A stretch of DNA of 64,000 nt from the human T2T-CHM13v2.0 reference genome, Homo sapiens: NCBI RefSeq assembly GCF_009914755.1, contig NC_060943.1; one strand, written 5' to 3'. Below the pieces are notes generated by a model, which ran no database searches, was not told the DNA's origin, and was given only the letters and a program-made list of their open reading frames with translations. Position 1 is the stretch's first letter. Each line of letters begins with the position of its first letter. Below are positions 4,145 to 19,150 of the stretch, piece after piece. The position numbers were made by a program, and so were the translations under genes.

Positions 4145-5903
4145 TTATCAACTTTAGCATCCAGGAAGGAGCATAAAAGATTTTAAAAAGAGAGAGAGAG
4201 CAAAGAACACAGAAGAAAAACCACAGCAACTCCCTCTAAGTGCTGTTGAAGCCAACTAAAAGTGGGGCTAGAAAAAAAAACAGAGGAAGAAGCTTGAGTA
4301 GTTTCACGTACTCGGGAGGCCGAATGGAAAGACCACCTGGGCAAGACTGAGGAGATCGAGGCTGCAGGGAATCACAATCGCATCCTTCTCCTGGACCTGA
4401 AGAGTACTGCCACTGGTGACCGCTTTCTGGTCTACCTTAGACATGGCAAGCTGGTGGCCAAGTCCAATGCTCATGGCTGAAGTCTGTCTTAACATAAATA
4501 AACTAACAACTAACAGTAAATATTTAACAATAATAAGTAATAACAAATAATAACAAGACAAATAAGTGAGAGGGAACACAGATAAAAGGTAATTAATGTC
4601 ACAATTAATTGTTGTCTCTCTTTCTCTGTCTCTCTCTTCCTCAATCTCCATGTGTCACACTTTCACACCCAGGCTGGAGTGCACGTGTGTGGTCACAGCT
4701 CATTGCTGATCACTCACCTGCACTCCAGCCAGAATGTGATACAGTAGGAAGACCTAGCTAAAAATAATAATTTTATATATATATATATATATATATATAT
4801 ATCACGTCAATTTCAGCATGCAGAAAGGAGCATAAGAAAATAAAAGAGAGAGAAAGAGCAAAGAAGAAAGGAAAAAAAAAAAAACCACAGCAACTCACTG
4901 TAAGTACTGCGGAAGAAAACTAAAAGTGGAGCTGGAAAAAAAAAAGAACAGAGGAGGAAAGTCCAAGTATTTTCAGGTACTCTGGAGGCCAAGATGGATG
5001 GGACGACCACCTGTGAAAGACCAGGGAGATTAATATCGCAGTGAATCACAATTGCATCCCTCTGCCTTACCTGAACACTACTACTGGTGAGAGCTATCTG
5101 GTAGACCTTAGAAGTGGCAAGCTGGCAGCCAAGTCCAATGCTCGCAGCCAACATCTGCCTCAAAATTAATAAATAACCGACAGTAAATAATAAGAAAGAA
5201 ATGATAATGGACAATAATATTACCAATAAATAAATAAGTGGGAGTGAACAAAAATAAAAGGTAATTAAAATCACAATTAACTGTATCTCTCTCTGTCTCT
5301 ATTTCTCTGCCTCTCTCTGTCTTTCTGTTTTAGTCTGGGTCTCTGTCTCTCTGTCTTTCTGAATCTCTCTTCCCTGATCTCCGTGTGTCACACTGTCAAA
5401 CCCAGGCTGGAGTGAACGTGTGTGGTCACAGCTCACTGCTGATCATGTACCTGCACTCCAGCCAGGGTGTGACAGACTGAGAAGACCTGGCTAAAAAAAT
5501 ATATGTGTATATATAAAACATCAACTTCAGCATACAGGAAAGAGCGTAAAAAAAAATAAAATAAGAGAGAGAGAGAGAATGAGAGCAAAGAACAAAGAAG
5601 AACAACTATAGCAACTCTCTCTAAGTACTGTGGAAGCAAACTGAAAGTGGGGTTAGAAATAAAACAGAGGAACAATGTCTGAGTAGTCCCAGGTACTCGG
5701 GAGGCCAAGATGGGAAGACCACCCGGGTGAGACTGGGGAGATCCAGGCTGCAGTGAATCGTCATCACATCTCTCTTCTGGACCTCAATGGTACCACTGCC
5801 AGCAAGAGCCAAATGGTCAACCTTAAACATGGCAAGCTGGCGGCCAAGTCCAACACTCGTGGCTGACATCTGTCTAAAATGTATAAACAAATAAACAAAC
5901 AAT

Positions 5904-6198
5904 ATTTTTTTTTTTTGAGCTGGAGTTTCGCTCTTGTTGCCCAGGCTGGAGTACAGTGGCGTGATCTTGGCTCACCGCAACCTCTGCCTCCCAGGTTCAA
6001 GTGATTGTCCTGCCTCAGCCTCCGGAGTAGCTGGGATTACAGGCATGCGCCACCACGCCTGGCTAATTTTGTAGTTTTAGTAGAGTTGATGTTTCTTCGT
6101 GTTGGTCAAGCTAGTCTGAAACTCCCGACCTCAGCTGGTTTGCCCGCCTCGGCCTCCCAAAGTGCTGGGATTACAGGTGTGAACCACCTCGCCTGGCA
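5904..6198 (-). mobile_element. Alu (AluSp-like) inserted in array unit 3
   Basis: gagtttcgctcttgttgcccagg...ctcaccgcaacc...gaaactcccgacctcag. Confidence 0.9.
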
Positions 6199-17100: not shown

Positions 17101-19150
17101 GTCACCAGCGAGAGCCATCTGCTCGACCTTATACATAGCAAGGCAAGAGATACCTAGTTGACCTTAGACATGGCAAGCTGGCAGCTAAGTCCAATGCTTG
17201 TGGCTGAGATCTGTCAAAAAATAAATACACAAAAAACAACAGTAAATATTTAACAATAAAGAAATAGTAACATACAATATTATTGACCAATAAATAAGTG
17301 GAAGTGAACAATAATAAAAGGTAATTAATATCACAATTAAGATCTCTTTTCTCTTTCTCCCTGTATGTCACACCCAGGCTACAGTGTGATAAAAAAATCT
17401 AAAAGTCAACCTCAGTGTGCAGGAAGGAGTGTAGGAAAATACTGAGAGAAAAGAACAAAGAAGAAAAACAACAGCAAATCACTCTATGTACTGTGGAAAG
17501 AAACTGAAAATGGGGTTGGAAAAAACAGAGGAAGAAGGTCCGAGTAGTCCCAGGTATTCAAGGGGCCGAGATGGGTTGACCACCTGGGCAAGACCGGGGA
17601 AGTGAAGGCCAGAGTGAATCACCATTGTATCCTCCTGCTGGACCTGAACGGTACTGCCACTGGTGAAAATCATATGGACGATCTTAGACATGGCAAGGCG
17701 AGAGCCATCTGGTCAACCTTAGACATGGAAAGCTGGAGGCTAAGTCCAACGCTTGCGACTGACATCTGTCTCAAAATAAATTTAAAAACCTACAGTAAAT
17801 ACATAACAACAAAAAAAATTAAAGACCAATAAATAAATAAATGGGAGTGAACAAAGGTAAAAGGTAATTAGTGTCAAAATTAACATTTATTTTCACACAC
17901 ACACACACACACACACACACACTCTCTGTCTCTTTGTCACACCCAGTCTGGAGTGTGACCAAAAAAAACAAACCAAAAGGTCAGCTTCAGCGTACAGGAA
18001 GGAGCATAGGAGAATAGAAAGAAAAAAGAACAAAGAAGATAAACAACAACAAGTCACTCTTAAGTATTGTGGAAACAAACTGGAAGTGTGTTTAGGAAAA
18101 AAACAGAGGAAGAAGGTCCGAGTAGTCCCAGGTACTGGTAGGCTGAGATGGGAAGATCACCTGGGTGGAACCAGGGAGATCAAGGACGCAGAGATTCACA
18201 ATCGCATCCCTCTGCTGGACCTGAATGGTACTACCTCCAGCGACAGCCATCCAGTCGACCTTAGATATGGCAAAGCGAGAGTCATCTGGTCAGCCTTAAA
18301 GATGGTAAGCTGGAAGCTAAGTCCGAGGCTCGAGGCCGATATCAGTCTCAAAATAAATAAACAAAAAAACCCAACAGTAAATATTTAACAATAACAAAGA
18401 ATAACAACCAATATTACAGACCAATAAAGTGGGAGTGAACAATGGTATAAGGTAATTAATATCACAATTGAGATCTTCTCCTTTCCTCTCTCTTTTTTCT
18501 CTCTCTCTCTCTCTTTTTTCCATTTGTCACACCGAGGCTGGAGTGTGACAAAAAATAAAATCTAAAACTTCAATTTCAATGTCCAGGAAGGAGCTAAGGA
18601 AAATAGAGAAAAGAACAAAGAAGAGAAACAACAACAAATCACTCTAAGTACTATGGAAACAATCTGAAAGTGGGGTTAGAGAACAAACAGAAGAAGAAAA
18701 TGCGAGTACTCCCACGTACTACTCGGAAGGCCAAGATGGGTAGACCACCTGGGCAAGACCGGGGAGATGGAGGCCACAGTGAATCACGATTGCATCCCTC
18801 TGCTGGACCTGTGTGGTACTACCGCCGGCAAGAGCCACCTGGTCGACTTTAGACAATGCAAGCTGTTGGCTAAGTCCAACACTTGCGACCAACATCTGTC
18901 TCAAAATAAATTTAAACACCAACAGTGAATATATAACAATAACAAAAAATAGCAAACAGTATGAAAGACCAATAAATAAATGAGTGAACAAAGGTAAAAG
19001 ATAATTAATATTACAATTAAGACCTTCTCCCCTTACTCTCATTTTTTCTCTCTCTCTCTTTCTCTCCCTGTTTGTCACACTCAGGCTCGAGTGTGACAAA
19101 AAAATAAACCAAAAGGTCAACTTCAGCATGCAGGATGGAGCATAAAAGAA
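14117..19150 (-). repeat. Same tandem array, right part (~8 units plus partials), with an inverted block at 14753-15798
   Basis: Cores at ~14249, 16400, 16995, 17542, 18121 and 18705 plus a partial unit from 15805; reverse-orientation cores at ~15045 and ~15645. Confidence 0.95.
15477..15489 (+). terminator. Intact Sal-box-like motif AGGTCGACCAGAT
   Basis: Contains GGTCGACCAG, shared with the human (GGGTCGACCAG) and mouse (AGGTCGACCAG...) TTF-I terminator cores; second intact copy on the - strand at 15970-15979. Function untested. Confidence 0.45.

What the first reader, a model, noticed from the sequence alone, without database searches (positions are those of the whole stretch)
4145..19150. 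Orphan array of Sal-box-bearing units resembling a fossil rDNA Pol I terminator (R-repeat) cluster
Seen: about 13 units of ~550-700 bp, each with a core reading ctggtcNaccttagacatggc on the + strand. Variants are gtcgac (7661, 15480 region, 15973, 18254, 18842), gtcaac (5816, 6802, 16604, 17712) and gttgac (14914, 16569, 17157). The last two are exactly the CpG-deamination products of GTCGAC, so the ancestor was AGGTCGACCAG. Known: GGGTCGACCAG (human) and AGGTCGACCAG (mouse) are TTF-I Sal boxes that stop Pol I and form polar replication-fork barriers in tandem repeats behind 28S. From memory, the human R-repeat reads ...ggacttagccggcgtctgcacgtgtcccgggtcgaccag...ctgggaccacgcggaac...ttttttcagccccacc...gagtttg..., followed by T-rich DNA. 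This is colinear with ggacttagctgccagcttttcatgtccaaggtcgaccag (15449-15487) and with ctgggactactcggacc...tttttt...cagtttg...agagtgacttg plus a T-rich tract (15042-15170). Inference: an old, methylation-eroded copy of an ancestral primate rDNA terminator spacer, stranded with no rRNA gene. It may mark a former NOR, or be a cryptic TTF-I / fork-barrier cluster.
Basis: partly seen in the sequence, partly recalled or inferred. Interest (0 to 1): 0.9.

Follow-up and report, generated by a model that had tools for sequence, protein, structure and literature searches.

The report
Decayed satellite born from rDNA terminator repeats
This stretch of human chromosome 19 is an old, eroded tandem repeat copied long ago from the "stop signal" repeats that lie behind the ribosomal RNA genes, and it most likely does nothing today.

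Summary
About 14 unit-equivalents of a ~550-bp tandem repeat fill window 4143-19150. They are split by a 6.2-kb L1 insertion and two Alus, and one block is inverted. The core motif occurs 16 times against 1.6 expected.

The interpretation also holds. The unit consensus aligns colinearly, on the predicted strand, with the human rDNA R repeat, Sal box included (z about 18 against shuffles; 0 hits on reversed rDNA). It also aligns with IGS sequence about 1 kb further downstream.

A sister array 0.56 Mb away (chr19:24.142-24.147 Mb) directly abuts a full-length 28S plus 5.8S pseudogene, in the orientation rDNA has.

The window's array is an orphan copy made by segmental duplication of a neighbouring array. 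It holds no rRNA remnant.

Only 2 of 24 Sal-box positions keep GGTCGACCAG, against 1.4 expected under neutral decay. None has the human GGGTCGACCAG form, so present TTF-I function is unlikely.

Displaced, degraded rDNA near centromeres is a known kind. I found no description of a satellite family derived from the terminator repeats, and its Dfam name could not be checked. My recalled guess, SATR1, failed a primer test.

The parts
4143..7921 (+). Left block of satellite units, about 5 units. The first two (4148-5504) are long-form units that keep an extra Alu-like hairpin. Sal-box orientation is on the minus strand.
   Evidence: nhmmer hits at 4148-4682, 4804-5338, 5517-5880 plus 6207-6357, 6509-6940 plus 6971-7380, and 7380-7918. 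Alignment. The left edge abuts a truncated Alu. Long unit 4546-4719 aligns to rDNA(-) 17975-17797, 113 of 169 identical.
5915..6197 (-). Alu insertion inside a unit
   Evidence: Metazoa_SRP-type matches at 5915-6063 and 6081-6197, below the gathering score as is usual for Alu. The unit's HMM coordinates resume after it.
6951..7232 (+). Alu insertion inside a unit
   Evidence: Metazoa_SRP-type matches at 6951-7065 and 7085-7232.
7937..14101 (-). L1 retrotransposon inserted into one unit. It is not part of the satellite.
   Evidence: Pfam finds RVT_1 and endonuclease in a 965-aa open frame, and the three L1 ORF1 domains in a 325-aa frame. The 15-bp target-site duplication CTAAAAGGTAAACTT lies at 7922-7936 and 14102-14116. 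The paralogous array lacks the insertion.
14102..14752 (+). Continuation of the interrupted unit plus a partial unit
   Evidence: nhmmer hits at 14106-14623 and 14635-14752. It is 86.5% identical to the paralogue chr19:23.4213-23.4219 Mb.
14777..15799 (-). Inverted block of about 1.8 units, a fairly recent inverted duplicate of 17391-18365. Here the Sal box reads on the + strand.
   Evidence: nhmmer minus-strand hits at 15205-14777 and 15799-15221. Inverted-repeat arms are 86-94% complementary to 17401-17831 and 18183-18365.
15802..19150 (+). Right block, about 5.7 units of 550-590 bp, most with 2-3 tandem 35-bp Sal-box modules
   Evidence: nhmmer hits from 15802 to 19101. Spacing is 553-588 bp. 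TRF finds 35-bp arrays at 15891-15992 and 16523-16624.
15477..15487 (+). The only AGGTCGACCAG in the window. This is the mouse-type Sal-box core 11-mer.
   Evidence: motif definition from the bioRxiv preprint read.
15970..15980 (-). Second site that keeps GGTCGACCAG (reads TGGTCGACCAG)

Best explanation
The array is a decaying member of a small chr19-pericentromeric satellite family. The family's ~550-bp unit descends from the Pol I terminator region of an ancient rDNA copy: one R repeat (Sal-box modules, an Alu-like piece, an A-rich piece) plus about 1 kb of IGS downstream of the last R repeat. The inferred history has five steps. (1) A piece of rDNA reaching at least from ITS1 to about 4 kb into the IGS was displaced to the chr19 pericentromere. 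(2) Its terminator-repeat part expanded by unequal exchange into a tandem array, and the 35-bp Sal-box module expanded further inside units. (3) Segmental duplication spread arrays to at least four other chr19 sites on both sides of the centromere, including this window. (4) The window copy later gained an L1, two Alus, an inverted duplication and extra units. (5) With no Pol I transcription and with methylation, CpGs and the Sal boxes decayed neutrally. Shown: homology, colinearity, orientation, the 28S/5.8S pseudogene next to a sister array, paralogy, insertions and the decay statistics. Inferred: the direction rDNA to satellite, the order of events, the age, and the lack of present function.
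For: Homology. A 10-unit HMM hits all three R repeats of a chr21 rDNA unit on the minus strand (E 3.6e-8, 9.4e-8, 6e-5), and hits IGS 18000-17901 (E 2.6e-6). A 16-unit HMM ranks R repeats first in the 60 kb searched (E 6.1e-9, 3.8e-8). Blastn of consensus 78-345 against rDNA 16372-16129 gives 164 of 272 columns identical, E 3e-13; over ungapped columns this is 168 of 238, or 70.6%. Controls: 0 of 200 dinucleotide shuffles reach the observed score for consensus 60-345 (z 18-19), for the non-Alu Sal-box segment 262-345 (z 11) or for segment 375-478 (z 4). Reversed rDNA gives 0 hits at E up to 10. Reciprocally, one R repeat used as query finds 14 units in the window, each in the expected orientation. 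Colinearity continues through the hairpin in long-form units. Origin: the sister array at chr19:24,142,349-24,147,195 is followed within 14 bp by sequence colinear with rDNA 14,148 down to 8,019, at 73-87% identity. Rfam reads that sequence as LSU rRNA, model positions 1-3401 of 3401, plus 5.8S at 76 bits, on the strand that places the Sal boxes downstream of 28S as in rDNA. Other family pieces keep colinear IGS 18.1-18.9 kb flanks. Decay: CpG observed/expected is 0.31 in the array and 1.14 in the R repeats. Of the 24 Sal-box positions, 2 are intact against 1.4 expected from the family's own per-site decay. The 34-mer around the box mismatches at 127 of 816 positions (15.6%), equal to the family average of 16.1%. 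Paralogy: the window array is 83-89.5% identical to chr19:23.417-23.424 Mb, flank included.
Against: Identity to the modern R repeat is only about 60-70%, and it is seen with a consensus or HMM. A plain BLAST of whole rDNA against the window at E up to 1e-5 finds only Alu-type hits. Segment 60-150 alone is weak against shuffles (6 of 200 and 1 of 200 reach it), because A-runs inflate the null. The pyrimidine microsatellite lies on the opposite strand relative to the rDNA CT tracts, so it is not part of the homology. About 690 bp of modern IGS (17,107-17,797) has no counterpart in the unit. At the sister locus the junction is not clean: the last ~500 nt of 28S, the 3' ETS and the first Sal boxes are missing. 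The family's 11-mer is AGG-type, while all 8 rDNA boxes found are GGG-type, so the donor was not modern human rDNA. Only one rDNA unit, from chr21, was compared. No other primate or rodent rDNA was available. No binding, methylation or replication data were seen, so 'non-functional' rests on sequence decay alone.
Confidence: 0.85

Rival explanations
1. The array, or the family, still works as an extra-ribosomal TTF-I binding cluster. It could act as a polar replication-fork barrier or as a tether of the chr19 ZNF-cluster region to the nucleolus.
For: Two sites keep GGTCGACCAG. Sister loci keep more: 9 AGGTCGACCAG in 9 kb at chr19:24.14 Mb, 8 at chr19:30.30 Mb, and 11 in the chrX 35-bp array. 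The AGG-type core equals the mouse Sal-box core. A large part of chr19 and its ZNF genes are nucleolus-associated (PMC2845662, passages). R-repeat Sal boxes bind TTF1 and arrest forks (PMC8559705, passages).
Against: In the window 22 of 24 positions are broken, which is the neutral expectation. No site has the human 11-mer. The box region is no more conserved than the rest of the unit. One block is inverted, so any polarity would be mixed. No binding data were seen.
Confidence: 0.07
2. The locus marks a former nucleolus organiser: a tandem rDNA array once lay here and everything but the terminator repeats has been lost.
For: A 28S plus 5.8S pseudogene with its terminator array lies 0.56 Mb away. 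Degraded full rDNA units near centromeres have been read as possible former arrays (PMC5381670, passages).
Against: No rRNA-coding remnant lies in the 64-kb window. Only one partial unit (ITS1 3' end to 28S) is found in chr19:24.130-24.169 Mb, and no 18S lies within 7 kb upstream of the 5.8S. The window array is a duplicated copy of the 23.42 Mb array together with non-rDNA flank. A single displaced rDNA fragment explains everything seen.
Confidence: 0.08
3. The direction is reversed: a pre-existing satellite was captured by the rDNA spacer and became the R repeats.
For: The satellite keeps a longer Alu-like segment than the modern R repeat, which has a roughly 22-nt gap there. It also keeps segments that are present only once in the rDNA.
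Against: The Sal-box core is shared with mouse rDNA terminators (motif), so the box predates primates in rDNA. A sister array is physically continuous with a 28S/5.8S pseudogene in rDNA order and orientation, and other copies carry further colinear IGS. This pattern is expected from copying rDNA outward, not from capture.
Confidence: 0.03
4. The resemblance is chance or comes only from shared Alu-derived sequence. On this view the array is an Alu-derived satellite that happens to hold a GTCGAC palindrome.
For: Unit positions of about 150-262 do resemble Alu, and they hit many IGS Alus (E 1e-6 to 1e-3).
Against: The non-Alu Sal-box segment alone scores z 11 with 0 of 200 shuffles reaching it. 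Flanks on both sides of the Alu-like part align colinearly. The reversed control gives 0 hits. A sister array adjoins a 28S pseudogene.
Confidence: 0.01

Closest known systems
Human rDNA R repeats (Pol I terminator repeats, ~680 bp, typically 3 copies, with Sal boxes bound by TTF-I; PMC8559705)
   Same: Both are tandem units of similar size. The order is colinear: Sal-box modules, then an Alu-like piece, then an A-rich piece, with a Sal-box core at the homologous place and more than one Sal-box module per unit. In a sister locus the units lie downstream of a 28S sequence in the same orientation.
   Different: Identity is about 60-70% and GC is 41% against 64%. CpG observed/expected is 0.31 against 1.14. 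The box is AGG-type, not GGG-type. The unit also includes IGS sequence that in rDNA lies once, downstream of the last R repeat. There are about 14 units here against 3 in rDNA. No rRNA gene lies in the window, and most boxes are destroyed.
Displaced, degraded rDNA units near centromeres of chromosomes without NORs (Robicheau et al. 2017, PMC5381670)
   Same: It is rDNA-derived sequence, highly diverged, on a chromosome without an rDNA array, and close to the centromere. The chr19:24.147-24.152 Mb 28S/5.8S pseudogene is of this kind.
   Different: That paper describes single degraded units, on HSA20 and HSA2. The main text I searched has 0 mentions of chromosome 19, chr19, Sal box, terminator or R repeat; its Figure 4 was not visible to me. 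Here one small part of the unit, the terminator repeat, became a satellite family in its own right.
Satellites derived from rDNA intergenic-spacer subrepeats in plants and animals (general phenomenon, recalled; no paper read here)
   Same: Spacer subrepeats escape the rDNA and are amplified elsewhere as a tandem repeat.
   Different: The present case is human and primate, and it involves the terminator and fork-barrier repeats specifically. I found no description of it in the searches made.
SATR1 satellite (my own recalled first guess)
   Same: It is a primate satellite with a unit of several hundred bp; a 512-bp probe and a 589-bp array piece are mentioned in the macaque T2T preprint.
   Different: The two published SATR1 consensus primers (PMC3606032, supplementary file 3) have 0 matches in the window even with 3 mismatches. 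The name is not supported.

Membership tests
Derivative of the rDNA R repeat (Pol I terminator repeat) | Sal-box core GGTCGACCAG at the homologous position of the unit | tested here: met
   Consensus of 10 and of 16 units reads AAGGTCGACCAG in Sal orientation. It aligns base for base with the rDNA box.
Derivative of the rDNA R repeat (Pol I terminator repeat) | Colinear homology of the flanks beyond the box and beyond the Alu-like part | tested here: met
   Consensus 78-345 against rDNA 16372-16129 gives E 3e-13. Segment 262-345 alone scores z 11 with 0 of 200 shuffles reaching it. The reversed control gives 0 hits. A reciprocal search finds 14 window units.
Derivative of the rDNA R repeat (Pol I terminator repeat) | Position directly downstream of a 28S rRNA gene, boxes oriented to meet Pol I | tested here: not met
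   Not met in the window: there is no rRNA homology. It is met for the sister array at chr19:24.142-24.147 Mb, which abuts a 28S/5.8S pseudogene in that orientation.
Functional human Sal-box terminator / fork barrier | Human 11-mer GGGTCGACCAG (motif as given in the bioRxiv preprint 10.1101/2024.07.05.602234) | tested here: not met
   0 occurrences in the window and 0 in all 16 other family loci fetched. One AGGTCGACCAG and one TGGTCGACCAG occur in the window.
Functional human Sal-box terminator / fork barrier | Binding of TTF-I; termination or polar fork arrest | not testable with these tools
   No ChIP, EMSA or replication data are at hand. Literature searches found no genome-wide TTF-I map that covers such sites.
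Functional human Sal-box terminator / fork barrier | Conservation of the box above the neutral level | tested here: not met
   2 of 24 sites are intact against 1.4 expected. The 34-mer mismatch rate of 15.6% equals the family's non-CpG rate of 16.1%.
Displaced degraded rDNA unit (Robicheau et al. 2017 kind) | Homology to rRNA-coding parts as well as IGS | tested here: not met
   The window has IGS-terminator homology only. The sister locus has LSU model positions 1-3401 and 5.8S.
SATR1 | Match to the SATR1 consensus (published primers as proxy) | tested here: not met
   0 matches with up to 3 mismatches for either primer. The Dfam consensus itself was not available.
Alu / 7SL-derived repeat | Match to the SRP/Alu model over the unit | tested here: inconclusive
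   Only unit positions of about 150-262 resemble Alu; HMM hits to IGS Alus have E 1e-6 to 1e-3. Rfam's Metazoa_SRP model hits the inserted Alus and the truncated Alu that abuts the array's left edge (4084-4148), but no satellite unit at E up to 1.

The most novel reading that the evidence does not exclude
The Sal-box module is not just a passenger. As a TTF-I-bound polar fork barrier it may have provoked the breaks and unequal exchanges that amplified it. That would explain why exactly the 35-bp box-bearing piece re-expanded several times: 51 copies at chr19:30.30 Mb, 66 on chrX, 9 and 22 on chr13, and 2-3 per unit here. The better-kept arrays (8-11 intact AGGTCGACCAG each) may still bind TTF-I, stall forks, or help tether the chr19 pericentromeric ZNF clusters to the nucleolus. 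The family would also preserve the ancestral, mouse-like AGG form of the primate Sal box, dating the shift to the human GGG form.
Probability: 0.1. Interest if true: 0.8.

Novelty: new member of a known kind. Interest (0 to 1): 0.55.

Why it matters
The finding gives a concrete, datable example in the human genome of an rDNA control element escaping the rDNA and becoming a satellite. The element is the Pol I terminator and replication-fork-barrier repeat.

It adds a chr19 case to the known pattern of degraded rDNA near centromeres.

It preserves an old state of the Sal box, AGG-type as in mouse. That bears on how terminator and TTF-I co-evolved.

It also lists non-ribosomal Sal-box clusters: the sister arrays and the 35-bp minisatellites on chrX, chr13 and chr19q. 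TTF-I binding, fork pausing and nucleolar association could be tested at these outside the rDNA, where reads map uniquely in T2T assemblies.

For the window itself the practical message is that the array is an ordinary decaying repeat.

Tried and rejected
- **SATR1.** This was my first, recalled guess for the family name. It was rejected after the published SATR1 primers gave 0 matches. Passages on SATR1 in four papers do not mention rDNA.
- **Reciprocal genome search.** A whole-genome search with 2 kb of rDNA terminator was swamped by rDNA copies (3036 candidates, 40 scored). It said nothing about chr19. I replaced it with local nhmmer searches.
- **Plain BLAST.** BLAST of a whole rDNA unit against the window (E up to 1e-5, word size 9) gave 467 hits, all in Alu-bearing IGS bins, with none in the R repeats. 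Single decayed units are too diverged for this; a consensus or HMM is needed.
- **Tandem Repeats Finder.** It cannot see the ~550-bp period (limit 500) and reported only the 35-bp modules.
- **Rfam.** At E up to 1 over 3000-20000 it gave only Alu-type and chance microRNA-like matches.
- **Literature.** A full-text search for the consensus 18-mer gave 0 papers. Seven other searches gave nothing on such a satellite. One search failed on term length.
- **Not seen.** S2 Fig of PMC6281188 (a PDF) names satellite blocks in macaque rDNA. Figure 4 of PMC5381670 and Figure 3E of PMC2845662 (a 'PolI pseudo' track on chr19, legend only) may already show the chr19 rDNA pseudogene.
- **Exact age.** This was not pursued, because only rough rates recalled from memory were available.
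Full report
**What is there.** The window is T2T-CHM13 chr19:23,560,001-23,624,000.

- The motif CTGGTYRACCTT (up to 1 mismatch) occurs 16 times, all between 4427 and 18850. Shuffles give 1.62, and 0 of 100 reach 16.
- One unit (17391-17965) used as an nhmmer query finds 19 pieces between 4148 and 19101, about 14 unit-equivalents. They are + oriented at 4148-7918, 14106-14752 and 15802-19101, and inverted at 14777-15799.
- Spacing is 553-588 bp on the right and longer on the left. On the left, two Alus are inserted, and the first two units are a long form.
- The inverted block is 86-94% complementary to 17401-18365, so it is a later inverted duplication.
- 7937-14101 is an L1 on the minus strand. 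It has a 15-bp target-site duplication inside one unit. The satellite proper is therefore about 8.8 kb.

**The unit.** A 10-unit alignment gives a 546-bp consensus. Sixteen near-full-length units from four chr19 arrays give 537 bp. These 16 were the hits covering at least 440 HMM positions; shorter hits were left out.

The unit reads, in order: a purine-rich start, an A-rich segment, an Alu-like segment (about 150-262), one to three 35-bp modules that carry the core, an A-rich stretch, a segment I call C (about 375-480), a CT microsatellite, and a short hairpin. In long-form units the hairpin is a larger inverted Alu-like piece. In Sal orientation the consensus core is AAGGTCGACCAG.

**Test against real rDNA.** I fetched 60 kb of the chr21 rDNA array.

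- The human box GGGTCGACCAG occurs at concatenated positions 15047, 15308, 15365, 16121, 16178, 16819 and 16876, and again one unit later. This marks three R repeats.
- Rfam places 18S at 5318-7186, 5.8S at 8265-8417 and LSU from 9594.
It also hits 18000-17901 (E 2.6e-6).
- Blastn of consensus 78-345 against 16372-16129 gives 164 of 272 columns identical with 32 gap columns, E 3e-13. Over ungapped columns this is 168 of 238, or 70.6%.
- The aligned stretch includes the box and the flank that holds GCTAAGTCC, well outside the Alu-like part.

Controls:

- 0 of 200 dinucleotide shuffles reach the observed score for 60-345 (z 18-19), for 262-345 alone (z 11) or for 375-478 (z 4).
- The A-rich 60-150 segment alone is weak: 6 of 200 and 1 of 200 shuffles reach it.
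- Reversed rDNA gives 0 hits at E up to 10.
- A 16-unit HMM ranks two R repeats first in the 60 kb.
- One R repeat used as a query finds 14 units in the window, each in the expected orientation.
- Long-form unit 4546-4719 aligns to rDNA(-) 17975-17797 through segment C, a pyrimidine tract and the hairpin, with 113 of 169 identical.

The unit is therefore colinear with the last R repeat plus IGS about 1 kb beyond it. About 690 bp of modern IGS in between is skipped.

**Family and origin.** The unit finds at least 141 matches in the genome, a lower bound.

- The arrays lie at chr19 23.416-23.422, 23.564-23.579 (this window), 24.142-24.147, 24.196 and 30.299-30.308 Mb.
- Fragments lie on chromosomes 5, 6, 7, 10, 12, 13, 18, 22 and X.

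The decisive result came from the sister array at chr19:24,142,349-24,147,195. Within 14 bp of its last unit begins sequence colinear with rDNA 14,148 down to 8,019, at 73-87% identity. Rfam reads this as LSU rRNA covering model positions 1-3401, plus a 5.8S (76 bits). Both lie on the strand that puts the satellite's boxes downstream of 28S, as in rDNA.

The junction lacks the 28S 3' end, the 3' ETS and the first boxes. No 18S lies within 7 kb, and no further rDNA was found in 24.130-24.169 Mb at E up to 1e-8. Other family pieces continue into colinear IGS 18.1-18.9 kb: chr19:30,308,897-30,309,364, chr19:24,196,563-24,197,030 and chr10:50,065,945-50,066,185.

Together with the box being shared with mouse terminators (motif), this points to rDNA as the source.

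**The window copy.** It is a paralogue of the 23.417-23.424 Mb array. Blocks 4147-6949, 7263-7936, 14102-14752 and 15807-16606, and the flank 21419-22685, match at 83-89.5%. The paralogue lacks the L1. No counterpart of the inverted block or of 16606-21419 was among the 30 best matches listed. The window holds no rRNA homology.

**Decay and function.**

- The array has 41% GC and CpG observed/expected 0.31. The R repeats have 64% GC and 1.14.
- Of 34 rDNA CpGs in the aligned span, the satellite consensus keeps 13, shows TG, CA or TA at 10, and something else at 11.
- Units differ from each other by K2P about 0.30.
- Of 24 box positions in the window, 2 keep GGTCGACCAG (15477-15487 reads AGG; 15970-15980 reads TGG). 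Four differ only by one CpG transition and 18 are otherwise changed. None has the human GGG form.
- From the family's own per-site retention (non-CpG 0.839, CpG dinucleotide 0.24), 1.4 intact boxes are expected.
- The 34-mer around the box mismatches at 15.6%, the same as the unit average.

I see no sign of selection on the box. I judge present TTF-I function unlikely, but I could not test binding.

**Age (rough, inferred).** The 28S pseudogene differs from functional 28S by K2P 0.106 at 2,728 non-CpG sites, and the 5.8S by 0.072 at 119 sites. Nearly all of this should lie on the pseudogene branch. By neutral rates recalled from memory, this means tens of millions of years, on the order of 40-80. 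All intact boxes in the family are AGG-type, which fits a donor older than the modern human GGG boxes.

**What is known.**

- R repeats, their Sal boxes, TTF1 binding and fork arrest are described in PMC8559705 (passages).
- Degraded rDNA units near centromeres of chromosomes without NORs are described in PMC5381670 (abstract and passages). Its main text has 0 mentions of chromosome 19, Sal box, terminator or R repeat.
- PMC2845662 shows a 'PolI pseudo' track on chr19 and reports nucleolar association of much of chr19 (legend and passages).
- I found no paper that describes a satellite derived from the terminator repeats.
- The Dfam name, if any, is unknown to me. SATR1 failed a primer test.

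**Verdict.** The array is a non-functional, duplicated remnant. It is of evolutionary interest and of modest general interest.

Noticed in passing
outside the window: chr19:24,146,946-24,152,334 (L018 6946-9000, L033 1-3334): A 28S plus 5.8S rRNA pseudogene with part of ITS1 and ITS2, on the minus strand and 73-87% identical to rDNA. It lies directly beside a sister satellite array. Rfam's LSU model is covered 1-3401, and the 5.8S scores 76 bits.
   Followed up: yes
outside the window: chrX:140,366,375-140,368,678 (L027 2375-4678); chr19:30,299,986-30,301,759 (L019 1986-3759); chr13:18,441,566-18,441,880 and 18,444,238-18,445,012 (L026): Pure arrays of the 35-bp Sal-box module, with 66, 51, 9 and 22 copies. 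Their consensus holds AAGGTCGACCAG. Intact AGGTCGACCAG counts in the fetched loci are 11, 8 and 5.
   Followed up: partly
outside the window: L019 13-1345 (chr19:30,298,013-30,299,345): Another 35-bp tandem repeat (38 copies) beside the q-side array. Its unit holds GGGGTCGCCCAGG and looks like a diverged variant of the Sal-box module. This was compared by eye only.
   Followed up: no
window 7937-14101, minus strand: A near full-length L1 with a 965-aa open ORF2 stretch and a 325-aa ORF1, flanked by a perfect 15-bp target-site duplication. It is absent from the paralogous array, so it is younger than the duplication.
   Followed up: partly
window 4147-16606 and 21419-22685 against chr19:23,417,032-23,424,000 (L017): A segmental-duplication paralogue at 83-89.5% identity that includes the flank with the VN1R92P pseudogene. 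No counterpart of window 16606-21419 was among the matches listed.
   Followed up: partly
window 15757-16029: The last exon of the predicted lncRNA LOC105372335 (hub annotation) lies across the junction between the inverted block and the right block of satellite units.
   Followed up: no
outside the window: L020 550-682 and 1897-2364; L028 2563-3030; L025 2945-3185: Family fragments that continue into sequence colinear with rDNA IGS 18.1-18.9 kb. In two places this IGS piece sits between segment C and the A-rich segment, which suggests an older, longer repeat unit.
   Followed up: partly
L012 (chr21 rDNA), Rfam hit ending at 4251: Rfam's LSU model reports its last position (3401) at concatenated 14,251, about 800 bp before the first Sal box at 15,047. 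This is more than the 3' ETS I recall, so the model end may not mark the true 28S 3' end.
   Followed up: no
PMC6281188, S2 Fig (not seen): The paper says macaque rDNA holds satellite blocks that are absent from other primates, with names given only in a PDF figure. These could relate to this family.
   Followed up: no
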